64,000 nucleotides of DNA from Candidatus Riflebacteria bacterium HGW-Riflebacteria-2 (GCA_002839435.1 PGYA01000007.1:14756-78755); one strand, 5' to 3'. Counted from the first letter of the stretch, positions 1,429 through 63,086 are shown. Numbers and translations are program-made. The notes: generated by a model not told the origin, from the letters alone.

Positions 1429-1431
1429 AGA

Positions 1432-2106
1432 TCAGTATGTCGGTGCTGAATCTGAGAACGGCGCCACATTAAGACGAAATTTATGACTCATCGGAACTTT
1501 TAAATCTCTGGCGATATAGCCATCAGGCGGAGCCAGTGTCAGTGAGATTTCCAACAACGTACCAATTGCATCAGCATTGATACCTGCTACGATTTCTTCG
1601 GCATTGTTCGCTGTTTTTATAACAGAAGAAACGATGAATTCGATTGCCACCACATCATCGAGCACCGGTGCGCGACCGCCGCCGCCGTTGATAACCAGCC
1701 TCCGATTCTGTCTGGCAATCGAATATATACTGTGTTCGCTGGTGTGATTTGAACTGGCCATATCGTAAATTGTCCTGCTCACGTTCCAGGCAAGTATGTT
1801 GCCATTTGGAGCGGAGCTCGGGTCAGGATGAATTTTGACAGGCCGGGGCGATTCTGTCAGAGTAGGATTAAGAATGTCAGTACTGAATTCCAGCCGATTG
1901 GTCGCCTCTTCAAGAGCCTTACGCGCCTGGGCCCAGAAAATATCGGACTGTGCCGCACGCTCCTGCTTCCAGGCGGTAATTCTAAATGAGTCGCTGCTGC
2001 GACTGTACAAATACATTACCGCCATAATAAAAACAGAAAATACCATTATCGAAACGACAATTTCGATAATGGTAAAAGCTTTTTTATTCTGCAATCTTAA
2101 TCTCAA
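1432..2106 (-). CDS. pseudopilin / type IV pilin-like protein (prepilin N-terminal cleavage/methylation motif)
   Basis: N-terminus KKAFTIIEIVVSIMVFSVFIMAV matches the G/A-F-T-[LI]-I-E prepilin consensus with Glu at +5 followed by a hydrophobic helix. Confidence 0.6.
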   Translation of the reverse strand: MRLRLQNKKAFTIIEIVVSIMVFSVFIMAVMYLYSRSSDSFRITAWKQERAAQSDIFWAQARKALEEATNRLEFSTDILNPTLTESPRPVKIHPDPSSAPNGNILAWNVSRTIYDMASSNHTSEHSIYSIARQNRRLVINGGGGRAPVLDDVVAIEFIVSSVIKTANNAEEIVAGINADAIGTLLEISLTLAPPDGYIARDLKVPMSHKFRLNVAPFSDSAPTY

Positions 2107-2635
2107 CCAGTTCCTCCAGCGTTTTGCGGGTACCGTTAAAACTACCCCAAACCCTGACTCTCAGATAATCCTGCGTATAAAGACCGGACAAATTATGTGA
2201 AACCAGGTCGAACTCATCGACGCCAAAATCAAATGTACCGACGAGAGCAGCATCGCCAGCACCAGCAGAGCCTGTCTCAAGAAACTGCTTGATTTTTGCA
2301 GCCGGTGTATCAGCATTTGCCGTCTGCAGATCATGCAACCACATCATTCTGGTCATATTGAACTCGGCTGGGTCGGCGCCATTTTTAACATCAAGTGAAA
2401 GCTGATGTATCCGGTAGTATTCAGAAGGCAGAACGCGGTATTTATAAATCGCCAGCTGTATTCCCGACCTTGCCGCCATCAGAGCACGCGTCTGTTCATA
2501 CTGCTTGCCGAAAGTACCACGCTGCTGTCTGGTATTCATCAGCAGAATGCCAATCAGGGCGAGTATGGCAGTGCAAAATACCAATACCACAGCGATAGCT
2601 ACACCGCGTTTTGTACTATACAATTTTACCATCAT
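2084..2635 (-). CDS. minor pilin-like protein (GspK/PilX-like N-terminal anchor, no Glu5)
   Basis: N-terminus RGVAIAVVLVFCTAILALIGILL is a single N-terminal TM anchor of the PilX/GspK type. The ORF overlaps the flanking pseudopilin genes, so it sits in an operon. Confidence 0.45.
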   Translation of the reverse strand: MMVKLYSTKRGVAIAVVLVFCTAILALIGILLMNTRQQRGTFGKQYEQTRALMAARSGIQLAIYKYRVLPSEYYRIHQLSLDVKNGADPAEFNMTRMMWLHDLQTANADTPAAKIKQFLETGSAGAGDAALVGTFDFGVDEFDLVSHNLSGLYTQDYLRVRVWGSFNGTRKTLEELVEIKIAE

Positions 2636-3231
2636 CTGCTCATATCTGCGCGAAATGTTTCGAGATCAACCGCCTCGCGCTGACCATAATCAACCCGGAC
2701 CTTTACACAAACCAGGTCGTCGAAGCAGGAATAAGTCGCCACCGGTGCTGGAGGCGCCGGTGGAACCGGTGGAGGGCCGGGAGGAGCCTCGAAGTCTCTG
2801 AAACCAAAAACAAGAGCATCATTGTGCGGCGTTTCTATGTTCTGAGCTCGAAAAACCGTATTCACCCAGACACTTACCGAATAAGAAGCCCGGCCAATTG
2901 CTACCGCAGTCGAGCTTGCCGTCATGCCCGAGAATTCGAGAGAACCCTTGAACTCGCCCGATGGCGTCTGTATATTGAGAGGAATTGTGTCCAGCGAGCC
3001 TTCCAGCAGTTTGTTGTAGTTAACCGTCAACAAAACGTTGATAACAGCCTCACCAAGCTTTAGTGCCGTTTCCTGTTCTATCTGACGGGTGGCGGTGCCG
3101 TATGAAGTCGAAAAAGCGCCGATGGCAGGCAATATTGCAAGAGCCATAATTACAAGTGCGACAAGTATTTCGACCAGCGAAACCCCGCAGCGGGTACTTA
3201 AGGCTGTTCCGTGTCTACCTGTTCTTTTCAT
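2632..3231 (-). CDS. pseudopilin (prepilin N-terminal motif) with Pro-rich segment
   Basis: N-terminus GVSLVEILVALVIMALAILP matches the prepilin motif. There is a PPGPPPVPPAPPAP stretch near the C-terminus. Confidence 0.6.
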   Translation of the reverse strand: MKRTGRHGTALSTRCGVSLVEILVALVIMALAILPAIGAFSTSYGTATRQIEQETALKLGEAVINVLLTVNYNKLLEGSLDTIPLNIQTPSGEFKGSLEFSGMTASSTAVAIGRASYSVSVWVNTVFRAQNIETPHNDALVFGFRDFEAPPGPPPVPPAPPAPVATYSCFDDLVCVKVRVDYGQREAVDLETFRADMSR

Positions 3232-14538: not shown

Positions 14539-14594
14539 TTTGTCGCCAGCCCTTTTGCATTGACTTGCCGGCAAAAAGGCTATATATTTTTTCC

Positions 14595-14945: not shown

Positions 14946-15015
14946 AGGTAGACGAAAAGCTGTAAATCAGATATATTTAAGGTAAGGTACACAAAAAGAC
15001 AAGGAGGTCTTAACT

Positions 15016-16278: not shown

Positions 16279-16382
16279 GCTTTCCTCCATCGGCGGGCGT
16301 CTGATCGACTCCAACATTGTAACAGTTTTTCGCGACGGGATAAAGCGTTGACAATAACGCCCGGGGTTGAGATTATTTAATT

Positions 16383-18494
16383 ATGCACTCAATGCTGTCT
16401 CGATCATCAAATTTAATAAAACGTAATGGCTTTGCCATAATGTTTGCCGTCGTCATCGGCACTGTCATGCTTATTCTGGCAGTGTCACTTTACACATTCG
16501 TCGGGCACCAGCACACTGGAATTCAAAGCATAGTCAACGGCGAAATCGCGCATTTTCTTGCTGAAGCAGGCATCAACAGCAGCATAGGCTCAGTACGTGA
16601 GGCCGTCGCCAAAGTTATGTCCGGCACTTCGGGCAACCAGCAGCTCAACGAAATACTGCTAAAACCCGGTGATCTCGATGATGTCTGTATCAATGACATG
16701 CTCGATGCCAACTGGAACCGCGACCTCGAAGAGTTTGCGCGCGAAATGGACAAAGATGCCTCGATCAAAGTCGAAGTCTGGCTGAGAGATTTCAGCAACT
16801 GCGAAACCGCGCCTGGCAGCTGGGCCGACCCGGTTGCCAAAGACGGTCATCTGGTAATTGAATCGACAGGCACCTTCAAGGGCAGCAGCCGGGTAATTCT
16901 GGTCAAGCGCAGAGTAAGAGTGGGAAATACCGTTCCCGCCTGGCTGAGCAAGTTCAGCCTGTTCGTCAACGATGCCGCCCGCGCCGGCGAAGGCGGCTTC
17001 AACCTTATCCGTAACGACTACCGCGGTATGATAACCGACGGCCCTAAGGCGCTGATTGTCTACAACCACGCCACCCCTGACGCGCCCTTCGAGGCCGGCA
17101 ACATGAGCGATATTCTGCGCGAAGAAGGCGATAAAGACATCTGGCAACGCCGCGGCTGGCTCTGGATGGGAGGCCGGCGCAGCCGGCTGAATCTCTGTTC
17201 CGGCGCCGGCGATCTCGGCGAAATATTCCATTTTTACGATGTCAGCAACCCGAATATCTTTTCGCCGGTCAAGTTCTCGACACCGGCAGAAGCTCTTCCC
17301 GAAGCTTTTTCTACGTCGCTGATGATTCCGTGGGACAAAAGCGACACCTCAGTCCGCCAGGTCAGTTACAGATTCGGGCACAGTTTCGTGCTCGATGGCT
17401 TTCACGACCGCAGCAACCGCAAAGAAAGCGACGCGATGTACGAAGGCAACATCCTTTCAACTGGTGAAAAAAACTCCTATTCATCTAAATCATCGATTCT
17501 GCACCTGTTCGGTGATGCGCGCAAGGGTTACCAGTCGCGCACCCGCGTGTTTGGCAACGTTCACATCGCTTTCCCGCGCTATGCCAGCCTTGAAGTAAAA
17601 GCTGACGAACCCGACGTCGAGGCACTCTTTACCGCGGTCAACCCGCCGCCGCTTTATCTGCTGCCTTCGGTTTCAGAGAGCGCCTGGCACAATTCGATCA
17701 TGATTCAAGACATCATGGGCCGCAAGTTTGGCGGGCCGTTACTGCAATCAGGCATGCTCTGCCGCAGTTACGCTGACTACGCGCAACTGATGAGCCGAAT
17801 CAGCGAACTGCCTTATGCTGAATCCTACAACAGCATGCAGGACGTCTACAGTAATAAGGCCGGCCGGGTGTTTCCATCAGATGCCAGCATTCTTGCCATG
17901 GACAACGGCCTCAACCTCGAAATTTCGCGCGACAGTCACGTTTTTTTCAAGGGCCGACCGACAGCACAGGGACTGCTTCAGGTTATAGACAACCGCACAC
18001 AAATCGAAGTCGATTCGATAAACGATTTCTGGAAACGTTTTCTCAATGAGCGCGATGAGCTTGAGCTCAATGCCATAGTCAGTATAAAGAATCCGCGTCA
18101 GCTCGACATGCAGATTCCAGCCGCCGGCAAACCACAACCGATGACAGTAAAAGGCGGCGGAATGATCATACTCCGGCAGGGCAACCTGGTATTGCGCGGC
18201 ATCAGCTGTGCATCACCCGACGAGGCACTGACCGTCGTTCTCGCCGGTAACGGTTCGGTAAGCTTTTCTTCGACGCAGCCCAATCATGTAAACATTGTTG
18301 CGCCCAACGCCGAGCTGGGTTATGGTTCTAAATTCGACATGTATGGCTCCATGTGCGTCGGCTCTATCTACGCCGACCATCGTTTTCAGGGCGGCACCCT
18401 GCGCTTTCGCCCCGGCCAGGATCCTGCCACTTCCGGTTACAACCGATATTACAAGGTATTTATCGATCCCAAGGATTCATTCTGGAATGAATAA
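16383..18494 (+). CDS. large (703 aa) PilX/GspK-like minor pilin / putative pilus-tip protein
   Basis: N-terminal anchor KRNGFAIMFAVVIGTVMLILAVSLYTF is PilX_N-like with no Glu5. It is followed by a large globular region and lies directly upstream of two canonical pseudopilin genes. Confidence 0.5.
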   Translation: MHSMLSRSSNLIKRNGFAIMFAVVIGTVMLILAVSLYTFVGHQHTGIQSIVNGEIAHFLAEAGINSSIGSVREAVAKVMSGTSGNQQLNEILLKPGDLDDVCINDMLDANWNRDLEEFAREMDKDASIKVEVWLRDFSNCETAPGSWADPVAKDGHLVIESTGTFKGSSRVILVKRRVRVGNTVPAWLSKFSLFVNDAARAGEGGFNLIRNDYRGMITDGPKALIVYNHATPDAPFEAGNMSDILREEGDKDIWQRRGWLWMGGRRSRLNLCSGAGDLGEIFHFYDVSNPNIFSPVKFSTPAEALPEAFSTSLMIPWDKSDTSVRQVSYRFGHSFVLDGFHDRSNRKESDAMYEGNILSTGEKNSYSSKSSILHLFGDARKGYQSRTRVFGNVHIAFPRYASLEVKADEPDVEALFTAVNPPPLYLLPSVSESAWHNSIMIQDIMGRKFGGPLLQSGMLCRSYADYAQLMSRISELPYAESYNSMQDVYSNKAGRVFPSDASILAMDNGLNLEISRDSHVFFKGRPTAQGLLQVIDNRTQIEVDSINDFWKRFLNERDELELNAIVSIKNPRQLDMQIPAAGKPQPMTVKGGGMIILRQGNLVLRGISCASPDEALTVVLAGNGSVSFSSTQPNHVNIVAPNAELGYGSKFDMYGSMCVGSIYADHRFQGGTLRFRPGQDPATSGYNRYYKVFIDPKDSFWNE

Positions 18495-18930
18495 GACACA
18501 GCGTAGCGGCTTATCAATGATTGAAATCGTCTTTTCGATCGGCATACTTGCCCTGATCATGCTGCCTGTGTTCATGACGTTTTCGAGTGGCAACCGCAAT
18601 ATACAGCTGACAGACTCAGAATTCAGGGCACACACAGCCGCGATCGAGCTGATGGAACAGATTGTTTCGCTGCCGTTCGGCCAGATAAAAAGCGGTGAAT
18701 ATGACAGTGACACGATTATCGACGGCGGGCAGTTTGCCGACGGCCCGGTTTTGTTCAAGCTTTCGCCAGTCGAAGATCTCAGGCACACATTGAAAATTGA
18801 GGATATCAAACGTGACGGCAAAACTCTGTTCAAGAAAGTCACGGTAACGATAAAGTTTGCCGCGGCGCCTGGTTCAGACCGTATCCGCGAATTTTTCATG
18901 AAAACGCTGGTGGCCAATGAAAACCTGTAA
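18487..18930 (+). CDS. pseudopilin (prepilin N-terminal motif)
   Basis: Start MNKTQRSGLSMIEIVFSIGILALIML contains the G-LSMIE motif with Glu5. ATG 18487 overlaps the stop of the upstream gene. Confidence 0.6.
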   Translation: MNKTQRSGLSMIEIVFSIGILALIMLPVFMTFSSGNRNIQLTDSEFRAHTAAIELMEQIVSLPFGQIKSGEYDSDTIIDGGQFADGPVLFKLSPVEDLRHTLKIEDIKRDGKTLFKKVTVTIKFAAAPGSDRIREFFMKTLVANENL

Positions 18931-19498
18931 AACCCGGGCATTTACACTGGTCGAAATTATTGTCGTCTGCGGCATAGTTACCGTTTTTCTCGGCACGGCC
19001 ATTATGCTTTTCACCAACTTCCGGCGAGGCTTCAGCCGCAGTGAAGGCACGGCGGTCCTGATGCAGGATGGCGCCCTCTTTCTGGCGCGCCTGCGCACCG
19101 ATCTTAACAACGCGGTTATAGCGCCCGACGCTTCCGGCGGCACCCCGGCCCAGATCAATACAACTCCCGATCAGCTGAGCTTTATGGTTTACAGCAGTCG
19201 TGAGGCGAAAGCCCTGCCGGTAATCTACCGCTATCTGGCCGCAGAGAACGGCGGCAGTATTTTTCGGCGCGAGGGCGGCGAGAAAGAGCGCGAACTGATA
19301 AAGGATCGCGTCGCATCTCTCACCTGGCAGACCGAACTGGAAAGGTTTGTAGAACCTGATAGTACTGGTTCCGGCACCATAAGGCTCAGCATTGGCCTCG
19401 ACATGAAACTTAAAATGAAAAGTGGCGACGAGAAACCTTTTTCGCTGAAAACCTCTATTTTCCCGGCCCGTCTCAATCGTCAGCTCAACTCGCCCTGA
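18917..19498 (+). CDS. pseudopilin (prepilin N-terminal motif)
   Basis: MKTCKTRAFTLVEIIVVCGIVTVFLGTAIML carries the classic A-FTLVEI motif. Confidence 0.65.
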   Translation: MKTCKTRAFTLVEIIVVCGIVTVFLGTAIMLFTNFRRGFSRSEGTAVLMQDGALFLARLRTDLNNAVIAPDASGGTPAQINTTPDQLSFMVYSSREAKALPVIYRYLAAENGGSIFRREGGEKERELIKDRVASLTWQTELERFVEPDSTGSGTIRLSIGLDMKLKMKSGDEKPFSLKTSIFPARLNRQLNSP

Positions 19499-19577: not shown

Positions 19578-20789
19578 ATGACACAGAAATGGCTGATCCT
19601 GGTGAGCATACTGCTTTTCACTGCTTTTGCTCCAGTTTATGGGCAGAGCGGCAGTTATCTCGACAGCATCTACAGCGCAGACGGCCAGGGCACCTCAGCC
19701 ATAGCTGACGAACCCGAAACCCGATATGTAGACGACAGCGATAATCCTCCCGAAGTCGTTGACGTCCCGGAACCAACTGGTGACCCGGCACAACAGAAAG
19801 CCCTCGAACGCCTGCAGAACATCATCAATCAGATCATGCGTATAATTGGCGGTAAAATGTGCGGCGCCAGAATTGTCGTGGTGGTAATTCCCTGCGAAAA
19901 AATAGTGCCAAAGCCCAAGCCCCCGGTAACCAGCACATCGACTTCTACTGCTACCTCGACCTCGACTGCGACCTCTACCGGCACGCAGACCTCTACCAGC
20001 ACAACCACTTCGACAAGCACGCAGACCTCGACGAGCACATCGACTTCGACCGCCACCTCTACTGGCACGCAAACCTCTACCAGCACAGCGACTTCGACCG
20101 GAACTTCAACGGCGACGGCGACGGCCACTTCCACCAGCACCGGCACCAGCACGGCAACAGGCAAAGAAGCAGTACGTGCCGCTATCCGGCAAAAATACGG
20201 CATAAATGCCGCCGATGGCCAGAATCAGACCTGGAGCGAAAATCAGCTGCGGGCAGCTGACGAAGCACTTGCTTCCTTACCATCGTTCTTCCGCAAGTGC
20301 ACCGATACAGTCTATCGTGACGGCCCGCCATACGACTCGAGAATACCACCCAGCGCCGCGGCCTATGTTATAGTGCCTCAGCACAAAGTTCATATGCTCG
20401 ATCTCAGCGCCCAGATGACACAGGGCGCCTACAATTCGCTGGTAGCGGCCTATGGACGCGCACCAACCACCGAAGAGCAGATGGCCTATCTCAAGCATAA
20501 TTTCAAACGCACTCTGGTGCATGAGATGACGCACTGTTTCCAGAATACCTACCCACAGGTCATGCAGAACTGGAGCAGACAATTCTGGCCGGGTGGCCGC
20601 CTCGTCGGACAGTGCCCAACCGGTTATGGTCGCACTCAGCCGGTTGAAGACATGTCAGAATCGGTAGCCACCTACTGGACCGGCGGCTCGATCAAAAATG
20701 GCGTATTCGTTTCAAGAAGCGGTGCCACCATGGATCTCGAACGCTACAACTTCATCAAGCAATACATCATGGATGGCAAGGAATACTGA
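19578..20789 (+). CDS. secreted HExxH zinc-metallopeptidase-like protein with a Thr/Ser-rich linker
   Basis: RBS GGGGGAGG. Signal peptide. A ~75-aa (T/S/A/G)n linker. The C-terminal domain has LVHEMTHCF (HExxH) and a downstream EDMSES motif with a candidate third Zn-ligand Glu. Confidence 0.55.
   Translation: MTQKWLILVSILLFTAFAPVYGQSGSYLDSIYSADGQGTSAIADEPETRYVDDSDNPPEVVDVPEPTGDPAQQKALERLQNIINQIMRIIGGKMCGARIVVVVIPCEKIVPKPKPPVTSTSTSTATSTSTATSTGTQTSTSTTTSTSTQTSTSTSTSTATSTGTQTSTSTATSTGTSTATATATSTSTGTSTATGKEAVRAAIRQKYGINAADGQNQTWSENQLRAADEALASLPSFFRKCTDTVYRDGPPYDSRIPPSAAAYVIVPQHKVHMLDLSAQMTQGAYNSLVAAYGRAPTTEEQMAYLKHNFKRTLVHEMTHCFQNTYPQVMQNWSRQFWPGGRLVGQCPTGYGRTQPVEDMSESVATYWTGGSIKNGVFVSRSGATMDLERYNFIKQYIMDGKEY
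19927..20160. repeat. degenerate tandem repeat of ACN/TCN codons encoding the Thr/Ser linker
   Basis: Repeated units such as acctcgac / acctctac / acttcgac are visible in the sequence. Confidence 0.7.
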
Positions 20790-20806
20790 GCTGAAAGGAT
20801 CAAGCA

Positions 20807-22162
20807 ATGAATAGACTGGCACTGGTTCTGACAATCCTTCTGGCCCTTTCAGCTCCTGCCTGGAGCCAATCAGGCAGCTACCTCGACGCCGTCTACCAGG
20901 TCTACGACAACGCCAGCGACACCGACCCGCTGGAAACCCTTAAAAACAGCATTCGCGATCAGTTCGAAATCGAGATTGCCGATGACCCAGATGTTCATCG
21001 CTGGTCAGAAGACTGGCTAAATGCCACGAAAACCGTGCTGACCGCGCTTCCAGCCAGTTTTCGCGCGGCGACCCGCATGATCTACCTCGAACCCAGCAAC
21101 CTTGATTTCGAAGTCAAATACAATGGCTACAACGATCAGCATGGCATAGTTCAGATGGGCCATGGTTCGATGTATCCATCATCGGTTTACGTCAGCAAGT
21201 TCAAGGCGACCTATAACCGCCTGCCTACAAGCGCCGAAAAAATAGCACGTTTCAAGTATATCCTGGCGAGAGGCATGGCCTACAGCTTCATTCAGGAAAA
21301 CCCCGACATTTTCAAGGCATACGGTCAGACGATTACCTACGGTGACTACCCGACCAAAGTCTACGGGCCGGGTGCCGAAGCCAACATGGTTGTACTTCCC
21401 GGCAAAACACCATTGATGATCGATCTGGCATTTGCCATCGGTGAATACTGTGCGGCGCCTTCCAGCCTGCAGAAGAAATCAAAAGATCGCTTTGATTTCG
21501 TAAAAGCCCACGTTATGGGCGGCACTGCCATCTCCGGCTGGGATTACAAGCCAATCGATGACTCAGCCTCGAACACCACCGACCCCGGCAACGACGATCC
21601 GGGCAATAATGTCGAAGTTCCTACTGCCAGCGGCGCTCCCGAGATTCCAGATGGCGACTACATGCCGATTGTCACCGAAGTCGATGTCGGCACCGCTGCC
21701 GCCAATCTGCCGACTGAATGGAAAACCGCACCCGATCTGCTCAAGAGCGCAATTGCCGAGCTTTTCGAAGTGTTGCCCAAGTTTTTCTCGACCTGCACTC
21801 AGGCTATTGCCTATATGCCGACAACCGATACCGAAACCGCTTTTTCCGCCGAAGGCTTCGTCTTTATCACCCAGAATTCATGGTTCATGTCATCATTTGT
21901 CGATCTCGACGATGCCGCGCGCGGCAAGCGTTTTAAAGAGATACTGATGCGTGAAATGGCACTGCGCTTTCTCTACTTCCACCCTGAAGTCACGCAGAAG
22001 TGGAAAGACACCTTCGACAAGACCCAGAGCAGTTACGACGCCTATATCGACATGCAGCAGGCAGTTGTCGGCTATTTCGCAGCCCCGGCCTGGCTCAAAC
22101 AGGTGAACCAGGCGCGCTACAACTTCATCAAAACCGAGTTCATGCAGGGCAAAGAATTCTAG
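20807..22162 (+). CDS. secreted paralog of the upstream metallopeptidase-like protein, with an internally duplicated domain and degenerate (His-less) active-site motifs
   Basis: It shares the N-terminus (signal peptide + QSGSYLDxVY) and the C-terminus (RYNFIKxxxMxGKE[YF]) with the 19578 gene. The motif positions read ILARGMAYSF and LMREMALRF instead of HEMTH. Confidence 0.5.
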   Translation: MNRLALVLTILLALSAPAWSQSGSYLDAVYQVYDNASDTDPLETLKNSIRDQFEIEIADDPDVHRWSEDWLNATKTVLTALPASFRAATRMIYLEPSNLDFEVKYNGYNDQHGIVQMGHGSMYPSSVYVSKFKATYNRLPTSAEKIARFKYILARGMAYSFIQENPDIFKAYGQTITYGDYPTKVYGPGAEANMVVLPGKTPLMIDLAFAIGEYCAAPSSLQKKSKDRFDFVKAHVMGGTAISGWDYKPIDDSASNTTDPGNDDPGNNVEVPTASGAPEIPDGDYMPIVTEVDVGTAAANLPTEWKTAPDLLKSAIAELFEVLPKFFSTCTQAIAYMPTTDTETAFSAEGFVFITQNSWFMSSFVDLDDAARGKRFKEILMREMALRFLYFHPEVTQKWKDTFDKTQSSYDAYIDMQQAVVGYFAAPAWLKQVNQARYNFIKTEFMQGKEF

Positions 22163-39846: not shown

Positions 39847-42800
39847 ATGTACCGGATATTTCTTTATCTGAGGCGCCGCGGTTTTACGCTGGCCGAAATT
39901 CTGGTGGCGACGGTAATCGCCGGATACTGCATCATGCCGATAGTTGGCAGCATGCAGGGCGGAATCAGACATACCGAAAACTTCAATCACCGCGAAAAAC
40001 TGCGCCTGCTCGCCCGGTCGCGCCTCAATAAAGAACTTGCAGCTGGCGCTTTCGACCATTCCGCAGTTAACTCAGCCCCGGCCTACCATTATGTTTTCAG
40101 GCACCCTGTCAGCGCAGACTATATTTCCTTTGACACTGGAATGACCACCGACAATGCCAGCTTCCCTGACCTGATCACCCCTTCGGGAATCGGAATCGAT
40201 GATCTGCTGTACTCATACAGAGTCAATGTTTCGGTCAGAGAAAATGTAACCATTGCGACAACATCTTCAAGTATTGATCCCAATATGCTAAAGGGTCCAC
40301 GCGGCCTCAAAGCAGTTGTAGTTAATGCCGAACTGCTCGACGGCCCCTATGTTATAGCTACTGATTCGATAAGCTACTTTTCACTGCTGACAGTGCCGAG
40401 TTTCGGCGACCAGTTCATCTGGATTTCCAACTCGAGCATGGTGCGAATTCTGGCCGTAGATGCCAGTACCCGCTCTATTGCTGAAACATTCCAGCTACCC
40501 TACGATACGAGCAAAGCCTTCGACAAAGCCGAACAGGACCCTTTTCGACCATGGAACATCGACCTGCACCCCAGTCGTCGATTAATTGGCGTTCAGTCAA
40601 GACAAAAGATAAGGCTGCTCAACATAGACAAATCGCACTCCTCCTATCAGCAAACTTCCGGATTTGTCGATGTTGCCAGCCATCTTGGTACCGACCCGGA
40701 TCCAGCCAAAAACATTTATGCCGACGCAAAAGCTGACGCAGCCAAAGCCGAAGAAGATCGCGGCATCGTTTTTCGACCAGACGGCAAGTATTTTTTCGTC
40801 AGCAGTCATAGTGACAAATCTTTATACGTCTACAAAATCGATGTTGCCACTTTCACCGATCCGGTCTGGTGGTCACAGGCAGCAGCGTCTGTTGCTCTGG
40901 CCAAACGTTTTGGCCTGAAAGCTGCTGAAGAAGGCGATTCTGATACAGAACACGATAAATTCACCGATATGATCGCCGGCAACGATGGCTATCTCTACCT
41001 CTCCATAAAAGACAAGAAAAACATCATCAGATTTCCCATGTATCCAAACTCTTTCGCCAGCGGCTGGACTTATGAATACGTACTTAAACCAACCGTCGAC
41101 AAAACGGTAAACTCGGTCTGGACTTCAAAAGATGGCAAATATGTGTATATACTCGATGATGAGTACAGGGTCGCCCAGTTCAAATCACACCCATTTGGCA
41201 AAATAGGATACGCCACATTATTCTCAGATGAAAAAATGCGTGATTTCAAGCTTTCTCAGGACTCAAGATATCTTATGGTAACAGATGTCAAAAGTGCGTC
41301 AAACAAGGGTGGTTTGTGGATCAAGAAAATCAATGAAATCAACTTTGCCAGCAATCCCACAATCGCCGCAGTGGATATGAGCAAAGTATATCCTGGTTAT
41401 GCGCTGAAATCTGACCTCTGCGTTCTTTCTCCGACTGGTTATGAAGTTCTATTTTCGCATAAAGACAAGCCTGAGCTGTATTTTGCCGGCATCGCCAGTG
41501 CAGCGAATAATGATTACACATCAAGTCTGCCCGCAGGCCAGATACTGGTTTACGACGGCACCGGCAAACCCTGCGCCGACATCGTGACGCGTGTGCCCGA
41601 GCACATGCTGGTAGGAACAAGTGACAGCAGAATCAAATTCTTCGACCTGCACACTTTCAAATTCGACGAAGACAGAGAGATAACTGGTCTGCGCGGAGTA
41701 CCGAGAACCATCGGGGTAAGCCCGCAGGGCACCAGATTCAAGGTCGGTTATGACGATGTCGTAAGCGGCCTCGATGCCTATAACATGATAGATTCCTCCA
41801 ACATTTCGGTTAATGAACTTACAGGAAACAGCAGGATAGTTTCTTATGCCGCCGACGATGAAACAGTGCGCCATGCCAGCGGTGTTGCAACATATTCAGA
41901 TAACTTTTATGCCACTCTGGAAGTAGATGGCTCAGCTACCCCTAACGGCTACTGGTTAAGAGACGCTCCCATCGGCAGTTTTGGCGACAACAACATCGAT
42001 GCAGCCTGGGTTCCACAGGACATGAAAGCCATGCCGAAAGGCGGCTTTCTCATGCTTTACAGAAAGAGCGATGGTTCCGCCATGCTCGACTGGGTCGGCA
42101 AAATCAAATGGGGCGCCAGCAAAGGCAAATACCAGCGCTTCGCCCGCTGGATAAGTCCATCCGCACCGTCCACCCTTCCCACATCACCAGAGCCAGGAAA
42201 CCCCGGAAATGTAGACACATCGGTTGGGTGTATTCAATTGCTCCAGGCAAGCAATTTCCCAGTTGGCACGACAATAACCCATGTCACTTACACTACGGGT
42301 CCCTTTGCCGGCACAAGATATTTTACTCCAGTGATAGTAGAAATAAATGGTGGAGTAAAAACAATAAAAGACTATGCAACATCGATTTCATCAACCCAGA
42401 ACCTTACTGATATTACGTCCGCAATCTCATGGCAGGTCAATGGAGGTCTGATTCAAACGTCCAATTATTATGTCGGCTTCTGGTTTGGACAGATCGGAGG
42501 CAGCGCTGGACAGGGCTTATTCGATCATGCCAATACAGGCGGTTCTTATGGATCAGACTACGTTAACGCTGGCCCAACAGCCATAACCTCGGCACAAATT
42601 GTTGGTGGCAACCATGTAATAACTTCTGGACCTAACGATACCAACAGGCAATACCCGGTTAAATTCACCGGGACTTTACCAGTAACCAGTTCTTTCCCGC
42701 CACGCTATGCACAGAATATCGCGATCAGCCAAGACGAAGGTTTCCTGGCCATTGAAGCTTCCGGAACTCCGCATGTGGTCTATCTTTATGACTTCGCCAC

Positions 42801-45711
42801 CAACAATTTCGGTCACGAAACGCAGCTGCCCGGTTTGATCATGGATAACCGGAATACCGGCACCGATTTTAATGTGGCGGTTCCAGCCGGCTCCCGCTTT
42901 ACCGGAGGTGGAATCAAATTGAGAGAAACGTTCACCGCCAACCACGCCTGGGCATATTTAAAAACTGAGCCGGTGAATTATAACAACGCCACCACTGACG
43001 CCAAACGTGTTTTTGGCTATTTTCAGCCAAAAGGTACGGTTGATAAGTTTTATCTGATCAGAGAGGATGTAGCCAGACTCTTTGTCGATAACTCACCGCC
43101 CAATGAATTGCTTAAAATCTGGTCTCTGGCTACCACACCATACGGGCCCGGTGCAAGACAGATTCTTGCCAGCACAAGCGTATTCATACAGGCTGATCAC
43201 GGTACTGACGGCGTGGGCAATGGAGGCATAGCCCCAATGTATACCACGAATGCTGCAGTATCAACAATAACTCAACCATCGGTGTCAGGAAGTAAATACG
43301 GCACAACGGCGAACTGGCAACACATAACAGCCTCTGAGACCAGACCGCTCAATTTTCAGCCGATTTTGCTGCGCTCTTATCCGTTAAGCGGGTGTAACAC
43401 GGTTCATGATACCGCGCTGGCATTTTCGCGCGATCTCGCCAACCCGATACTGTTTCAGCTCGACCCCGGCCAGGACGACATCTGGGCGTTAAAACCCGGT
43501 GCCTCATTCACCCGAATCGATATTGGCGGGACTTTCGAAGTGTCTGACAAACAGTTTGTTGTCAGTCCCGATGGACAGAAGCTGATTTTTGCCGAAGACA
43601 CAGGCTCTAACCGAATCTTTGTAACCAATATCGGCAATCCCGACAGCTTTGCTTTTGATGGTACCCCTGTGACGCAGTCTTCTATTTCTCCGGCAAGTTT
43701 TGGCAGCCTGATAACTGCAGTCGGCTGTAGTGCTCCGCCGAAAGCGCTCGGCGTCATGCCGTTCAATTCTTACAAATCAACCTCGCGTCTCGGTAAATAC
43801 GAGCAGGTGGCTACTCTGCCAAACCTTATTTATGGCAACAACAACGCGACTCTGGCAAATGGTGCCATCTACATAATGGGCGGCGCAATTAGCGAGGGGG
43901 CAGCGCCATTAAACAAAATATACAAATTTGAACCAATGGCAACGCCGGCAACCGTTTCAACGCAAATAGCAACTCTGACTCAGACAACCAAACTCAATTC
44001 AGTTGTTGCTTACGACAACAAAATATATAGCTTCAACGGCGCCAAAAACGCCGTTGTGGGCGATGTTACCAGCTGGGTTCAGCGCTTCGACCCCGCCACC
44101 GACCAGGTAATTTCTTCATTCGATCCAGTTGCCGGAACACCGACAGAAATTCAGGTCTCGTTTAATCAAGTTAGTTTGCCATCCCCTACCACGGTTACCG
44201 ATTCTGGCGACATAAGCGGATCTGCTGGTCCAGGTTCTCAAGCATTTGATGGCAGTATTGCAATTGGTAGTGCTTGGGCAACAAATTCCAACAGCCAGTA
44301 TCTTGAATATTATGCAGGAAATACAAGTTTGTCATTTGTAGTTAATAAAATATGGGTTAATAATTCTGTTACCGATACTGATGGAGGAACACATGACTAT
44401 TCCTTTTTTGGTTATGATGGTTTATCGTGGATTCCTCTCCTTACTCACACGATTCCAGAAGCTTCTACAAACTATAGCCAAAACTTCAGTAATTCTAGCG
44501 CTTACCAAGCATATCGGTTTCAAACGACTTCAAGATGTGGCAGCTTTGCAAGCTACTACGGTGTACGTGAAATCAAATTTTATTTATCTGGTGTAATTAA
44601 AATACCTGCTGTGGCATTGACTTCCAACTCCGGGCCATCGCCGTATACTGCTTATCAAAGTAGTACGAATAGTGGAAACGACGGTTACAAAGCTTTTGAT
44701 TCTGGAATAACAACTACTTGGTGGGAGGCTGGCAACAACTCAAATGAATGGGTCGGGATTTACACAGGAAATCTCAGTGGTGAAGTTGTAAAATATGTGA
44801 GAATTCTTTGCAACGAATCGGCTGGAAGACTTAATAATTTCTGGATAGAGGGAGCTTATAACAACACTTTTTCATCCTCAGTAATTATACCATTTTCAGA
44901 TGGAGCTGCTGTTGCAGCCCATCAAAACACCAATGCCAGCTATGTTTATACATTGAATAATATCATTCCATATACTTATTATAGACTATATTGTCAATCT
45001 ACTCATGATGGTAACAATCCAAGGATATACAATGTTGAGTTTTATACTGAATCTGGAGGATTAATTTCTGCTGGCGAACCCATCATGACCAAAACCATTA
45101 CCGACGCGCGTGGTTCTATCGCAGTATCGAGCAACGCAGCCTGCCAGACACCATACGGAATCGTCATCGCCGGCGGTTATACGGGTGCGGCAACGACCAC
45201 CGCCATAGTTTACTGGCCACATGCGCTCGATGAATATACCGATGCAACCAACCATTCATTTGGCATTTCGCGCTCTCTGCCACCTCTGCCAACCAGAATG
45301 ATGATGCATTCTCTGGTCTGGCACAAGGGAAAACTTTATCGCATAGGCGGAAGGCCAGACCCATCAAGCACCGCCACCAATATTCACATTTTTGACTTTG
45401 ACTCCAACAGCTGGTCAGCTGACATTCTCTTTACTAACACCGCATATTTTTCCACCAATGCAACTCTTGCTTTACAGAAGTATTCAGCCGCGGCCTGTTC
45501 TTTTGGCGATGAGATATTTGTGTTTGGTGGTTATAACAGCAGCGGCGACCTACAAAGCACTGCATTCGCATGGAACCCTGAAAGTACCGTGGTCAGGCAA
45601 CTTGGTGACATGCCGGTAGCAAAAGCCGGCCTGACCGCCGTTCCCTGTGGCTCATCGATCTACCTCATCGGCGGCACCAGCGACGCATCCGTTTACAAGT
45701 TCACCCCATGA
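39847..45711 (+). CDS. giant (~1955 aa) type IV pilin-like protein: prepilin N-terminus fused to beta-propeller, discoidin-like and Kelch-like domains
   Basis: RBS GAGAAGGGG then ATG 39847. N-terminus MYRIFLYLRRRGFTLAEILVATVIAGYCIMPIV is a textbook prepilin cleavage/methylation motif. Lactonase-type YVYK/YVTN repeats follow. Two F5/8-C-like segments sit around aa 1400-1650. C-terminal Kelch-like blades (KLYRIGG..., EIFVFGGYNS..., SIYLIGGTS). Confidence 0.7.
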   Translation: MYRIFLYLRRRGFTLAEILVATVIAGYCIMPIVGSMQGGIRHTENFNHREKLRLLARSRLNKELAAGAFDHSAVNSAPAYHYVFRHPVSADYISFDTGMTTDNASFPDLITPSGIGIDDLLYSYRVNVSVRENVTIATTSSSIDPNMLKGPRGLKAVVVNAELLDGPYVIATDSISYFSLLTVPSFGDQFIWISNSSMVRILAVDASTRSIAETFQLPYDTSKAFDKAEQDPFRPWNIDLHPSRRLIGVQSRQKIRLLNIDKSHSSYQQTSGFVDVASHLGTDPDPAKNIYADAKADAAKAEEDRGIVFRPDGKYFFVSSHSDKSLYVYKIDVATFTDPVWWSQAAASVALAKRFGLKAAEEGDSDTEHDKFTDMIAGNDGYLYLSIKDKKNIIRFPMYPNSFASGWTYEYVLKPTVDKTVNSVWTSKDGKYVYILDDEYRVAQFKSHPFGKIGYATLFSDEKMRDFKLSQDSRYLMVTDVKSASNKGGLWIKKINEINFASNPTIAAVDMSKVYPGYALKSDLCVLSPTGYEVLFSHKDKPELYFAGIASAANNDYTSSLPAGQILVYDGTGKPCADIVTRVPEHMLVGTSDSRIKFFDLHTFKFDEDREITGLRGVPRTIGVSPQGTRFKVGYDDVVSGLDAYNMIDSSNISVNELTGNSRIVSYAADDETVRHASGVATYSDNFYATLEVDGSATPNGYWLRDAPIGSFGDNNIDAAWVPQDMKAMPKGGFLMLYRKSDGSAMLDWVGKIKWGASKGKYQRFARWISPSAPSTLPTSPEPGNPGNVDTSVGCIQLLQASNFPVGTTITHVTYTTGPFAGTRYFTPVIVEINGGVKTIKDYATSISSTQNLTDITSAISWQVNGGLIQTSNYYVGFWFGQIGGSAGQGLFDHANTGGSYGSDYVNAGPTAITSAQIVGGNHVITSGPNDTNRQYPVKFTGTLPVTSSFPPRYAQNIAISQDEGFLAIEASGTPHVVYLYDFATNNFGHETQLPGLIMDNRNTGTDFNVAVPAGSRFTGGGIKLRETFTANHAWAYLKTEPVNYNNATTDAKRVFGYFQPKGTVDKFYLIREDVARLFVDNSPPNELLKIWSLATTPYGPGARQILASTSVFIQADHGTDGVGNGGIAPMYTTNAAVSTITQPSVSGSKYGTTANWQHITASETRPLNFQPILLRSYPLSGCNTVHDTALAFSRDLANPILFQLDPGQDDIWALKPGASFTRIDIGGTFEVSDKQFVVSPDGQKLIFAEDTGSNRIFVTNIGNPDSFAFDGTPVTQSSISPASFGSLITAVGCSAPPKALGVMPFNSYKSTSRLGKYEQVATLPNLIYGNNNATLANGAIYIMGGAISEGAAPLNKIYKFEPMATPATVSTQIATLTQTTKLNSVVAYDNKIYSFNGAKNAVVGDVTSWVQRFDPATDQVISSFDPVAGTPTEIQVSFNQVSLPSPTTVTDSGDISGSAGPGSQAFDGSIAIGSAWATNSNSQYLEYYAGNTSLSFVVNKIWVNNSVTDTDGGTHDYSFFGYDGLSWIPLLTHTIPEASTNYSQNFSNSSAYQAYRFQTTSRCGSFASYYGVREIKFYLSGVIKIPAVALTSNSGPSPYTAYQSSTNSGNDGYKAFDSGITTTWWEAGNNSNEWVGIYTGNLSGEVVKYVRILCNESAGRLNNFWIEGAYNNTFSSSVIIPFSDGAAVAAHQNTNASYVYTLNNIIPYTYYRLYCQSTHDGNNPRIYNVEFYTESGGLISAGEPIMTKTITDARGSIAVSSNAACQTPYGIVIAGGYTGAATTTAIVYWPHALDEYTDATNHSFGISRSLPPLPTRMMMHSLVWHKGKLYRIGGRPDPSSTATNIHIFDFDSNSWSADILFTNTAYFSTNATLALQKYSAAACSFGDEIFVFGGYNSSGDLQSTAFAWNPESTVVRQLGDMPVAKAGLTAVPCGSSIYLIGGTSDASVYKFTP

Positions 45712-45764
45712 TTCAGGAGAAGAGGCTCACGCGGAGGCGCAGAAAGGTTATTATGACTGAAAAC

Positions 45765-45850
45765 TGTCATTGCGAGGAGGGCATCAGCCCGACGCGGCAA
45801 TCTCCATGTCCAAAAAGATTGCTTCGTTGGCTTTGCCGACTCGCAATGAC
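45765..45850. repeat. palindromic-element copy (full hairpin) downstream of the giant gene
   Basis: TGTCATTGCGAGG...GGCAATCTC...GATTGCTTCG...CTCGCAATGAC. Confidence 0.7.
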
Positions 45851-45892
45851 GGCAGGAACCTGCTCTGCGGCTCTGCGTAAGAAAAATTCTTT

Positions 45893-46507
45893 ATGAAAAT
45901 TTTGTTTAAAAAAGGTTACACGCTGATGGAATTGCTGGCCGGGCTGGCGCTGATTTCGATAGTTTCCAGTATCGTATTGCCTGGTATTGCCAACTTCTAT
46001 TCAGGCCTGCAGGTCAAAACCGAAGGCGAAATTTTTGTGCAGAACGTCAGGCTGGCTCGTTACAAGGCAATAGGAGAGCAGGCCGTCTACCGCCTGATAT
46101 TCGACACCGACCCTGTGGTTACGCCGCCATTGGCCTATCGTGTACAAACCCACGCTGCTTATGACGACCCACCTATCGGCACATATGACTCAGGTTCCTA
46201 CGACGACGGCGACTATAACAGCACAAACTGGTTCGATGCGATCGAAGCCGAAGAAATCATTTTCGACACCGGCACCGAAATCAAAACCAACCTGCCGCAG
46301 GTGCTTTATTTCTGGCCAAATGGGCAGATATACACAGATCCAGATATAAATAGCCCGTTTGCAACACCGATTCCAGAATACTACATCGCTTTCAGCTACG
46401 GAAGTGCCGGGATCAAGGTTGTCGTTACCCCAATGGGTATTTTCAGTTCTGAATCTTATGCTGCCGATATTGTAGATGCCGAAGATGACAGCGAGGTTTT
46501 GTGGTGA
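45893..46507 (+). CDS. pseudopilin (GspH-like)
   Basis: MKILFKKGYTLMELLAGLALISIVSSIVLP is a prepilin motif with Glu5. Confidence 0.65.
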   Translation: MKILFKKGYTLMELLAGLALISIVSSIVLPGIANFYSGLQVKTEGEIFVQNVRLARYKAIGEQAVYRLIFDTDPVVTPPLAYRVQTHAAYDDPPIGTYDSGSYDDGDYNSTNWFDAIEAEEIIFDTGTEIKTNLPQVLYFWPNGQIYTDPDINSPFATPIPEYYIAFSYGSAGIKVVVTPMGIFSSESYAADIVDAEDDSEVLW

Positions 46508-47013
46508 ATAAAAAGGGGTTTTCGCTGGCTGAGATAATCGTTTCCACAATTGTCATGACCATGCTGATGGTGAGTGTCATTGGCTACATTCAGTACAGCG
46601 GCGAAATCTGGCAGGACGGTTACAGCAAAATTTCAGGTATTAACTACATGCGTATGACCACCGAAATACTGCGACAGGACCTGCTGCGGGCGGTAACCAT
46701 TGCATCGCCAAGCGCAGTTCTTGGAGGAAATGCCACTCCGACTGCCCAGCTTAACTACAGAATATCAGGGCTTCCCGGCAGTTTCACAATAAGAATCGCT
46801 ACAGACAGTGATTTGCTGCTGAGATTATCAGACGGAGTTGCCGCCATGAATAATCGTATAGCAAAAAATGTGGCATCGTTCAGCGTAATGCGCATCTCAA
46901 CCTGGACGCTGCAGATACATATTCAGATTCATAACGATATCACTGAAGAAGATGAGACCTACCGGATAATCGCCAGTGACACATTGTCTTTTATGGCACC
47001 AGGCGCGGGATGA
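46501..47013 (+). CDS. pseudopilin
   Basis: VNKKGFSLAEIIVSTIVMTMLMV is a prepilin motif. GTG start overlaps the upstream stop. Confidence 0.6.
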   Translation: MVNKKGFSLAEIIVSTIVMTMLMVSVIGYIQYSGEIWQDGYSKISGINYMRMTTEILRQDLLRAVTIASPSAVLGGNATPTAQLNYRISGLPGSFTIRIATDSDLLLRLSDGVAAMNNRIAKNVASFSVMRISTWTLQIHIQIHNDITEEDETYRIIASDTLSFMAPGAG

Positions 47014-47022
47014 GGAGCAACC

Positions 47023-63037: not shown

Positions 63038-63086
63038 TGTTTATCTCCAGTATGTATCATATAATTATACTTATTGGAGATAAACA
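63038..63086 (+). promoter_or_regulatory. 12-bp perfect inverted repeat (TGTTTATCTCCA-25 nt AT-rich-TGGAGATAAACA) overlapping the abiEi start: candidate autoregulatory operator
   Basis: Readable directly. The right arm ends at the ATG. Confidence 0.5.

What the first reader, a model, noticed from the sequence alone, without database searches (positions are those of the whole stretch)
16383..19498. Second pilin-like cluster headed by a 703-aa PilX/GspK-like protein
A large protein with a PilX-type N-terminal anchor (no Glu5) is followed by two canonical pseudopilins with translational overlap. Together with the other two clusters, this window carries at least nine prepilin-type genes. No assembly ATPase, platform protein or secretin is present in the window. 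This argues for multiple pilin sets served by machinery encoded elsewhere, as seen in PVC-group bacteria.
Basis: partly seen in the sequence, partly recalled or inferred. Interest (0 to 1): 0.5.

Follow-up and report, generated by a model that had tools for sequence, protein, structure and literature searches.

The report
Pilus-tip gene trio in Riflebacteria
Three overlapping genes in an uncultured Riflebacteria genome most likely encode the tip complex of a pilus-like filament, and its 703-residue cap subunit carries a large beta-solenoid of the kind already known from Thermus ComZ and cyanobacterial PilX, so this is a real but not unprecedented feature.

Summary
Three co-oriented genes lie at 16383-18494 (703 aa), 18487-18930 (147 aa) and 18917-19498 (193 aa). 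They overlap by 8 and 14 nt. Each has a prepilin-type N-terminus: RNG|FAIMF without Glu5, SG|LSMIE and RA|FTLVE.

The window comes from Candidatus Riflebacteria bacterium HGW-Riflebacteria-2, not from a PVC bacterium.

- The 147-aa protein weakly matches XpsI/GspI HMMs.

The trio keeps its order and overlaps in 40 of 43 scorable Riflebacteria loci. The 703-aa family has no Pfam or NCBIfam model, and every named member is a Riflebacteria protein.

The window holds 10 pilin-like genes. The same contig holds at least 14, in five clusters. No ATPase, platform protein or secretin lies in the window. A related genome has a gspF-G-H-I-J-K-pilM-like operon about 2 kb upstream of the pilin-gene row that contains the trio.

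Verdict: a new member of a known kind, of moderate interest. The ligand and the filament type are unresolved.

The parts
16348..16376 (+). Promoter-like site: TTGACA, 17-nt spacer, GATTAT, with TG before the second hexamer. It ends 7 nt before ATG 16383.
   Evidence: Consensus scan, 10 of 12 positions matched. The region as a whole has 8 such sites against 5.4 +/- 1.9 in shuffles, so this is weak evidence. If real, it implies a leaderless or nearly leaderless mRNA.
16383..18494 (+). 703-aa GspK/PilX-class tip pilin with an ice-binding-protein-like beta-solenoid (ComZ-like architecture). The putative prepilin-peptidase site is G16|F17, and there is no Glu5.
18487..18930 (+). 147-aa GspI/PilV-class minor pseudopilin (SG|LSMIE). 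It overlaps the upstream gene by 8 nt.
   Evidence: NCBIfam XpsI matches residues 7-123 at E 2.9e-4, far below the trusted cutoff. Ten of 23 orthologues match XpsI, 3 match gspI and 10 match ComGE. N_methyl is matched by 20 of 23 orthologues. Glu5 is invariant. The 8-nt overlap recurs in most loci.
18917..19498 (+). 193-aa GspJ-class minor pseudopilin (RA|FTLVE). It overlaps the upstream gene by 14 nt.
19578..20789 (+). 403-aa Sec-signal protein with a Ser/Thr-rich linker and an HEMTH motif. It may be co-transcribed with the trio but is not part of the conserved core.
   Evidence: It starts 79 nt after the J-like stop, and no terminator-like site lies between them. Homologues occur in 29 loci that also carry the 703-aa gene, and sit just after the trio in those inspected, but none is present in the loci where cyclases follow the trio (L002-L004). 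There is no significant Pfam hit.
20807..22162 (+). 451-aa Sec-signal paralogue of the 403-aa protein. It has two degenerate copies of the same domain, both lacking HExxH.
   Evidence: BLASTP of the two proteins aligns the 403-aa C-terminal domain to residues 43-239 and 318-451 (E 5e-11 and 2e-8). Homologues occur in 31 loci.
1432..3231 (-). Associated cluster A: 199 aa (G|VSLVE), 183 aa (RG|VAIAV, no Glu5) and 224 aa (KA|FTIIE). It is followed at 1-1431 by the 5' part of a GAF/class III cyclase gene.
   Evidence: Motifs are. N_methyl or TIGR02532 scores are at or near the cutoff. Homologues of the 224-aa protein lie about 600-2,400 nt downstream of the trio's J gene, on the same strand, in L018, L019, L023 and L024. 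The cyclase is identified.
39847..47688 (+). Associated cluster C: a 1954-aa pilin-fused Kelch/beta-propeller protein (G|FTLAE), then 204 aa (G|YTLME), 170 aa (G|FSLAE) and 221 aa (RG|MAGTI, no Glu5).
   Evidence: No homologues were found in the loci fetched around the trio.

Best explanation
The three genes encode a GspK-GspI-GspJ-type (PilX/PilV/PilW-type) initiation and tip complex of a type IV filament, meaning a type IV pilus or a T2SS-like pseudopilus.

**Inferred mechanism.**
1. All three proteins insert into the inner membrane through their class III signal peptides. A prepilin peptidase cuts after the conserved Gly or Ala.
2. The GspI-like (147 aa) and GspJ-like (193 aa) subunits pair with each other.
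3. That pair docks the 703-aa GspK-class subunit. This subunit lacks Glu5 because it is the topmost subunit.
4. The trimer primes polymerisation of a major pilin by an ATPase and platform machine encoded elsewhere in the genome.
5. The trimer ends up at the filament tip.

**Role of the cap.** The roughly 500-residue beta-rich body of the cap subunit includes an ice-binding-protein-like solenoid, as in Thermus ComZ and cyanobacterial PilX. It acts as the tip plug and as the ligand-binding or adhesive head.

**Stoichiometry and sets.** The overlapping stop and start codons couple translation, which suits a 1:1:1 complex. The genome carries several alternative sets, which probably equip the same machine with different tips.

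**Shown versus inferred.** Shown here: the motifs, the predicted folds, the gene order and overlaps, the conservation and the paralogy. Inferred: cleavage, complex formation, tip location, ligand, and which machine is used.
For: **Sequence motifs and coupling.**
- Prepilin-type N-termini occur in all three proteins. Glu5 is present only in the two small ones.
- Gly at -1 is invariant across 39 orthologues of the large protein, and +5 is never Glu.
- The genes overlap by 8 and 14 nt. The same order and overlaps recur in 40 of 43 loci and in a genome only 57% identical.

**Folds.**
- The 147-aa protein weakly matches XpsI, GspI, PilV and ComGE HMMs.

**Literature.**
- ComZ is described as a GspK-like pilin domain plus an ice-binding-protein-like solenoid. 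It binds its neighbouring pilin and is argued to sit at the tip (PMC6561018).
- Cyanobacterial PilX proteins have the same architecture and belong to two alternative priming sets (bioRxiv 10.64898/2026.02.12.705559).
- The PilI-PilJ-PilK licensing model comes from PMC13533445.

**Context.**
- In L004 a row of six pilin-like genes that contains the trio starts about 2 kb downstream of a gspF-G-H-I-J-K-pilM-like operon.
- Distant paralogues of the 703-aa family are also flanked by N_methyl genes.
- A second paralogue with its own J-like partner lies on the same contig, just outside the window.
- The large protein is about as conserved as the neighbouring flagellin (57% against 60% to L001). That fits a structural priming role.
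Against: - No sequence-level similarity to GspK, ComZ or any Pfam or NCBIfam family was found for the 703-aa protein. The classification rests on a predicted structure.
- Foldseek against the PDB gave nothing significant. Its best hit was ComZ at E = 0.19.
- The window's own small proteins score below the curated N_methyl cutoff.
- The GspI assignment is weak, about 21 bits against a trusted cutoff of 150.
- I could not inspect model coordinates. Whether the solenoid is inserted between the last two strands of the pilin sheet, as in ComZ, is therefore unverified.
- No prepilin peptidase, ATPase, platform protein or secretin was seen in this genome with the tools available.
- Only about 200 of the roughly 500 non-pilin residues are explained by the ice-binding-protein match.
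Confidence: 0.7

Rival explanations
1. The trio is the tip of a type II secretion pseudopilus rather than of a surface pilus. It would act as a piston head that pushes exoproteins through a secretin, and the two Sec-signal proteins encoded just downstream (403 and 451 aa) would be its cargo.
For: - The best structural matches of the J-like protein are T2SS GspJ/XcpW/EpsJ.
- The best HMM match of the I-like protein is XpsI.
- The related operon in L004 and L060 has the T2SS-like order F-G-H-I-J-K.
- Homologues of the secreted 403-aa and 451-aa proteins accompany the trio in 29-31 loci, with short gaps and no terminator in the window.
Against: - Minor pilins of bona fide type IV pili, such as those of Thermus, also resemble T2SS pseudopilins most closely (PMC6561018). 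The fold therefore cannot discriminate.
- The L004 and L060 operons already have their own H-I-J-K set and a PilM_2-like protein rather than a GspL hit.
- A bulky solenoid cap is known from pili (ComZ, PilX), not from T2SS GspK.
- The 403-aa and 451-aa genes are absent next to the trio in the deeper-branching loci (L002-L004).
- No secretin was seen anywhere near the trio.
Confidence: 0.15
2. The trio is specifically a competence-pilus DNA receptor. The 703-aa protein would be a functional analogue of ComZ that binds extracellular DNA at the pilus tip. This is a narrower version of the main explanation.
For: - A partner pilin is encoded next door, as PilA2 is for ComZ.
- The protein is strongly conserved and most genomes have a single orthologue, which suits a housekeeping receptor.
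Against: - There is no sequence similarity to ComZ.
- The predicted pI of the 703-aa protein is 6.1, with more acidic than basic residues.
- No competence genes (comEA, comEC, dprA) are in the window or in the flanks inspected.
- In cyanobacteria the same solenoid architecture also serves motility and adhesion pili, so architecture does not imply DNA binding.
Confidence: 0.15
3. The proteins are not filament subunits. The N-termini would be ordinary signal anchors of membrane-tethered periplasmic or surface proteins, and the resemblance to pilins would be convergent.
For: - The window's copies fall below the curated N_methyl thresholds.
- The large protein has no HMM match.
- ComZ itself is not predicted to be a PilD substrate.
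Against: - G/A at -1 and Glu5 are conserved across about 40 orthologous loci.
- 19-20 orthologues of each small protein match N_methyl.
- The control census gave 12 matches in the window against 0-1 in controls.
Confidence: 0.04

Closest known systems
ComZ-PilA2 competence-pilus tip module of Thermus thermophilus (PDB 6QVI/6QVF; PMC6561018)
   Same: - Both are large pilin-like proteins built from a GspK-like pilin domain and a triangular, ice-binding-protein-like beta-solenoid.
- Neither has a canonical Glu5-type prepilin signature.
- Both are encoded next to small T2SS-pseudopilin-like minor pilins.
   Different: - There is no detectable sequence similarity.
- The protein here is longer than the ComZ chains in the PDB (498 and 518 residues), and about 300 of its residues are unexplained by either domain match.
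- The gene order here is K-I-J with coupled translation, not the Thermus pilA-comZ locus layout.
- DNA binding is untested and the protein is acidic (pI 6.1).
- The host is Riflebacteria, not Deinococcota.
Cyanobacterial PilX-family minor pilins (including HpsA-like PilX-EPS) and their two core priming sets (bioRxiv 10.64898/2026.02.12.705559)
   Same: - A PilX/GspK-class subunit with a bulky ice-binding-protein-like solenoid is proposed there as the tip plug in place of PilY1.
- Several alternative minor-pilin sets occur per genome and share one machine.
- There is a reported link to cAMP signalling. Here, class III cyclase genes repeatedly sit next to pilin clusters.
   Different: - The phylum is different and no sequence-level relationship was shown.
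- The insertion point of the solenoid could not be verified here.
- The cyclase adjacency here is only a genomic observation, in genomes rich in such cyclases.
GspK-GspI-GspJ pseudopilus tip complex of type II secretion systems (PDB 3CI0, 5VTM)
   Same: - Both comprise three subunits.
- The K subunit lacks Glu5 and is the largest, with an extra domain.
   Different: [quoted passage not shown] Here it is a beta-solenoid-containing body of about 500 residues.
- No T2SSK, T2SSJ or T2SSI Pfam hit was found.
- The gene order is K-I-J instead of I-J-K.
- The trio is not embedded in a gsp operon.
Multiple minor-pilin/PilY1 clusters of Myxococcus xanthus (PMC7541494)
   Same: Several alternative priming and tip sets are encoded away from the core machine genes and are served by one type IVa pilus machine.
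   Different: - Those sets comprise four minor pilins plus a separate PilY1 adhesin.
- Here no PilY1 homologue was seen, and the bulky module is fused to the K-class pilin itself.

Membership tests
Type IV pilin / pseudopilin superfamily (class III signal peptide; Pfam PF07963 N_methyl, TIGR02532) | Short basic leader ending in Gly (or Ala), followed by about 20 hydrophobic residues | tested here: met
   All three proteins have it. Gly is invariant in 39 of 39 orthologues of the large protein. G or A at -1 is present in all I-like and J-like orthologues.
Type IV pilin / pseudopilin superfamily (class III signal peptide; Pfam PF07963 N_methyl, TIGR02532) | Glu at position +5 of the mature protein (absent only in the GspK/PilX class) | tested here: met
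   Glu5 is invariant in the 147-aa and 193-aa families. It is absent in every member of the 703-aa family, as expected for the K class.
Type IV pilin / pseudopilin superfamily (class III signal peptide; Pfam PF07963 N_methyl, TIGR02532) | HMM score above the curated threshold | tested here: inconclusive
   The window copies score 16.0 and 18.5 bits against a cutoff of 21.2. Twenty of 23 and 19 of 22 orthologues match at E <= 0.01, with best E-values of 1e-6 and 2e-7. The 703-aa protein has no hit.
Type IV pilin / pseudopilin superfamily (class III signal peptide; Pfam PF07963 N_methyl, TIGR02532) | Long N-terminal alpha-helix packed on an antiparallel beta-sheet | tested here: met
Type IV pilin / pseudopilin superfamily (class III signal peptide; Pfam PF07963 N_methyl, TIGR02532) | Cleavage and N-methylation by a prepilin peptidase, and incorporation into a filament | not testable with these tools
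   This needs biochemistry. No prepilin peptidase gene was located in the sequence available.
GspK / PilX class (T2SSK) | Pilin fold lacking Glu5, the largest subunit of the K-I-J trimer, encoded with I and J | tested here: met
GspK / PilX class (T2SSK) | Sequence match to a T2SSK/GspK model, and an alpha-helical insertion domain | tested here: not met
   No Pfam or NCBIfam hit was found at E <= 0.1. The extra body is beta-rich and ice-binding-protein-like rather than alpha-helical. I therefore do not file it as a GspK orthologue, only as K-class.
ComZ / cyanobacterial PilX type beta-solenoid tip pilins | GspK-like pilin domain plus a triangular ice-binding-protein-like beta-solenoid in one polypeptide | tested here: met
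ComZ / cyanobacterial PilX type beta-solenoid tip pilins | Solenoid inserted between the penultimate and the C-terminal strand of the pilin sheet | tested here: inconclusive
   DSSP shows three strands before the body and a last short strand at 690-694. The C-terminus is conserved (Y690, D698, W701, E703).
ComZ / cyanobacterial PilX type beta-solenoid tip pilins | Detectable sequence homology to ComZ | tested here: not met
   A profile of 41 homologues searched against all PDB sequences gave no ComZ hit even at E <= 10.
ComZ / cyanobacterial PilX type beta-solenoid tip pilins | Binding to the neighbouring minor pilin; DNA or other ligand binding | not testable with these tools
   Only single-chain prediction was available. 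No multimer modelling or biochemistry was possible.
GspJ / PilW class | GspJ fold | tested here: met
GspJ / PilW class | Sequence match to a GspJ model | tested here: not met
   Only N-terminal matches were found (gspH model positions 2-83, E 3.2e-4). There is no GspJ family hit.
GspI / PilV class | Small (about 120-150 aa) minor pilin matching GspI/XpsI/PilV models | tested here: inconclusive
   XpsI matches at E 2.9e-4 and 20.9 bits against a cutoff of 150, but over nearly the full length. Ten of 23 orthologues match XpsI, 3 match gspI and 2 match PilV. No structure was predicted for it.
Verru_Chthon cassette (TIGR02596-02600) | Matches to cassette proteins A-D above threshold | tested here: not met
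   Only N-terminal matches far below the cutoffs were found. One is for the 193-aa protein of this cluster (cassette protein D, 14.6 bits against 70). The others are for proteins of the other two clusters (for example 12.4 bits against 332).

The most novel reading that the evidence does not exclude
Riflebacteria would run one type IV filament machine with at least five interchangeable tip sets. The strongly conserved 703-aa solenoid cap would not be merely an adhesin. It would be a tip sensor whose engagement is relayed to the HAMP or GAF class III nucleotide cyclases that repeatedly sit next to these pilin clusters. That would be a pilus-tip-to-cAMP surface-sensing circuit in a phylum with no cultured model. 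The 300 unexplained residues of the cap could hold a new ligand-binding or enzymatic module.
Probability: 0.12. Interest if true: 0.6.

Novelty: new member of a known kind. Interest (0 to 1): 0.36.

Why it matters
- **Annotation.** The result gives names to a set of conserved 'hypothetical proteins' found across the candidate phylum Riflebacteria. The 703-aa family has 421 cluster representatives at E <= 1e-3 and no Pfam or NCBIfam model.
- **Reach of the architecture.** The solenoid-capped K-class tip pilin, so far described in Thermus (ComZ) and cyanobacteria (PilX), now extends to a third, unrelated phylum. This supports the idea that fusing the tip 'plug' to the K-class pilin is a widespread alternative to PilY1.
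- **Gene calling.** In close relatives the gene is often called 19 codons short (684 aa). If that call starts at Met20, it removes the leader and the cleavage site.
- **Limits.** The finding does not reveal a new kind of system.

Tried and rejected
**Searches that gave nothing for the 703-aa protein**
- Pfam and NCBIfam scans: no hits.
- A profile of 41 homologues against all PDB sequences: only chance hits.

- The afdb50 fold library was not available.
I used a database search to rebuild an allowed alignment.

**Profiles against the PDB**
- Profiles of the I-like and J-like families matched only the N-terminal helices of pilins.

**Attempts to find the machinery in this genome**
- A search with a related GspF fragment returned only fragments and one other Riflebacteria operon.
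- Extending the view beyond both window edges found more pilin clusters and cyclases but no ATPase, platform protein or secretin.
- One edge look-up failed because I chose a start codon that differs from the called gene.

**Readings considered and dropped**
- Verru_Chthon cassette: only sub-threshold N-terminal matches.
- PVC origin: all named homologues are from Riflebacteria.

**Within the window**
- No second member of the 703-aa family is present.

**Literature**
- Searches found nothing on pili or secretion in Riflebacteria.
Full report
**1. What is in the sequence**

The window has three co-oriented ORFs at 16383-18494 (703 aa), 18487-18930 (147 aa) and 18917-19498 (193 aa).

Reading the junctions directly shows the overlaps. 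The second gene starts at the ATG inside ATGAATAA, 8 nt before the first gene's stop. The third starts 14 nt before the second gene's stop.

The N-termini are as follows:
- MLSRSSNLIKRNG|FAIMFAVVIGTVMLIL..., with Phe rather than Glu at +5.
- MNKTQRSG|LSMIEIVFSIGILAL...
- MKTCKTRA|FTLVEIIVVCGIV...

A regex census finds 12 such N-termini in the window. The reversed sequence gives 1, and 20 trinucleotide shuffles give 0. Ten of the 12 are real gene starts. The other two are internal sites in AcrB and in a cyclase.

The ten fall in three clusters:
- 1432-3231 on the minus strand (three genes).
- The cluster in question (three genes).
- 39847-47688 (four genes, including a 1954-aa pilin-fused Kelch/beta-propeller protein).

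No T2SSE, T2SSF or secretin domain was hit in the ORFs scanned with Pfam, which included all those of more than about 500 aa. No GspE-type Walker motif occurs in any frame.

**2. Where it comes from**

All named homologues of the 703-aa protein are from Candidatus Riflebacteria, Rifleibacteriota or Ozemobacteraceae MAGs. Among the genome loci fetched, three are titled as other genera.

The 193-aa protein is 100% identical to PKL50298.1 (CVV42_03320) of Candidatus Riflebacteria bacterium HGW-Riflebacteria-2, on a 180,886-bp contig. A fetched piece of that contig overlaps the window exactly. The closest species-level genome is Ca. Rifleibacterium amylolyticum, at 90% identity.

**3. Conservation**

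The 703-aa protein has 94 homologues at 40-91% identity. Most full-length ones are about 700 aa, and only one fragment has a recorded Pfam domain.

In 40 of 43 loci that could be scored, it is followed by a protein of about 150 aa and one of about 190 aa. Both carry G/A|xxxxE N-termini. In most loci the 8-nt K/I overlap is the same.

The arrangement holds in the closed 5.2-Mb Ozemobacteraceae chromosome, at 57% identity and with wider synteny. It also holds in loci at about 40% identity whose flanks are quite different.

Across 41 aligned sequences of the large protein, the leader varies in length. The Gly before the hydrophobic stretch is present in 39 of 39 sequences that cover it. Position +5 is F, I, L, A or M and never Glu. 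Glu5 is invariant in the two small families.

The window's own small proteins fall just below the Pfam N_methyl threshold. However, 20 of 23 and 19 of 22 orthologues match it.

The large protein is about as conserved as the neighbouring flagellin, and more conserved than its two partners.

**4. What the proteins are**

*The 147-aa protein.* It weakly matches XpsI over almost its full length (E 2.9e-4). Its orthologues match XpsI, gspI, PilV and ComGE models. It is probably GspI/PilV-class.

This is the same pair of resemblances reported for ComZ itself, namely GspK for the pilin domain and an ice-binding protein for the solenoid (PMC6561018). It is also the architecture reported for all cyanobacterial PilX homologues (bioRxiv 10.64898/2026.02.12.705559).

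The trio is therefore a K-I-J module whose K subunit is solenoid-capped.

There is no sequence-level link to ComZ or GspK. I could not check the insertion topology because model coordinates are not exposed.

**5. Wider family and other sets**

An exhaustive profile search finds 421 cluster representatives at E <= 1e-3. Scores drop sharply from the orthologues (460 bits or more) to distant full-length paralogues (193 bits or fewer).

All eight of the latter that carry a name are from Riflebacteria. One MAG has at least four paralogues. Two distant members that I looked up are also flanked by N_methyl genes.

On the same contig, 7.4 kb beyond the window's left edge, lie:
- a further pair of pilin-like genes;
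- a 734-aa distant paralogue of the 703-aa family (E 1.8e-22) with its own J-like partner (E 5e-11).

The contig therefore holds at least 14 pilin-like genes in five clusters over about 71 kb.

A homologue of cluster A's 224-aa pilin lies a short distance downstream of the trio, on the same strand, in four gut-derived genomes. This links the clusters.

**6. The machine**

No machine genes were found in the window, or in the 10 kb beyond its right edge and 7.4 kb beyond its left edge.

In a related MAG (L004, identical to L039), a row of six pilin-like genes contains the trio. That row starts about 2 kb downstream of an operon with these parts:
- T2SSF;
- a 171-aa major-pilin-like gene;
- three small pilins with Glu5;
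- one K-like pilin without Glu5;
- a PilM_2-like 575-aa protein, two small proteins, and a TPR protein.

A second MAG has the same operon. So Riflebacteria do have a type IV filament machine with its own H-I-J-K set, and the trio looks like an additional tip set. Whether that is true of this particular genome remains untested.

**7. Mechanism**

By analogy with GspK-I-J (3CI0), ComZ-PilA2 and the PilI-J-K licensing model (PMC13533445), I infer the following.
- The I-like and J-like subunits pair and recruit the K-class subunit.
- The K-class subunit needs no Glu5 because nothing sits above it.
- The trimer primes polymerisation of the major pilin and stays at the tip.
- The solenoid body plugs the tip and binds a ligand.
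- The overlapping genes favour equimolar synthesis.

I put 0.7 on this general mechanism.

The ligand is open. It could be a surface, a polysaccharide or DNA. The protein is acidic (pI 6.1) and no competence genes lie nearby, so I give the ComZ-like DNA-receptor reading about 0.15. A secretion-pseudopilus reading, with the downstream secreted 403-aa and 451-aa proteins as cargo, also gets about 0.15. A non-filament reading gets about 0.04.

**8. Novelty and score**

The kind is known: solenoid-capped K-class tip pilins, and multiple alternative minor-pilin sets served by one machine (Thermus, cyanobacteria, Myxococcus).

What is new is a phylum-restricted family that sequence methods cannot recognise, with no family model, all annotated as hypothetical. 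It extends the architecture to Riflebacteria.

I rate it a new member of a known kind, with interest about 0.36.

Noticed in passing
L063 13487-17904 (same contig; 7.4 kb beyond window position 1): Two more pilin clusters lie just outside the window. One is a 142-aa (G|FSFIE) and 191-aa (G|VTFVE) pair. The other, convergent to it, is a 734/745-aa distant paralogue of the 703-aa family (E 1.8e-22) with a 132-aa J-like pilin (E 5e-11).
   Followed up: partly
window 39847-45711 (+): A 1954-aa protein has a canonical prepilin N-terminus (RRRG|FTLAE) fused to about 1,900 residues that include Kelch/beta-propeller repeats. It heads a four-gene pilin cluster. NCBI annotates it as hypothetical (PKL50315.1).
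   Followed up: partly
window 1-1431 (-), 53890-59722 (-); L002-L004, L040, L044: Class III adenylate/guanylate cyclases with GAF or HAMP domains repeatedly sit next to pilin clusters. One follows cluster A in the window, and two or three follow the trio in several distant Riflebacteria genomes. These genomes are rich in such cyclases, so enrichment over chance was not tested.
   Followed up: partly
window 19578-22162 (+): Two Sec-signal paralogues lie downstream of the trio. The 403-aa protein has a long Ser/Thr-rich linker and an HEMTH (HExxH) motif. The 451-aa protein has two copies of the same domain, both without the motif. Neither has a Pfam family. Homologues occur in 29-31 loci that also carry the trio.
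   Followed up: partly
window 16383-16442: Several close relatives have this gene called as 684 aa, 19 residues shorter than here. A start at Met20 would give that length and would remove the conserved leader and the G|F site. A promoter-like TTGACA-17-GATTAT ends 7 nt before ATG 16383, which would make the mRNA leaderless.
   Followed up: no
window 14565-15801 (+): A STAS-domain protein and a short (261-aa) flagellin lie directly upstream of the trio, after an 818-aa HEAT-repeat protein. This block is syntenic with the trio in many Riflebacteria genomes.
   Followed up: no
window 3215-5656 (-): An 813-aa Sec-signal protein with a long (PSD)n repeat and no Pfam hit is encoded immediately upstream of cluster A, overlapping its first pilin gene. 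A 499-aa TPR membrane protein precedes it.
   Followed up: no
window 47952-48578 (+), 63074-63679 (+): A Uma2-family putative endonuclease sits right after cluster C. An AbiEi antitoxin-like gene lies near the right edge, with AbiEii and an integrase just beyond it in L061.
   Followed up: no
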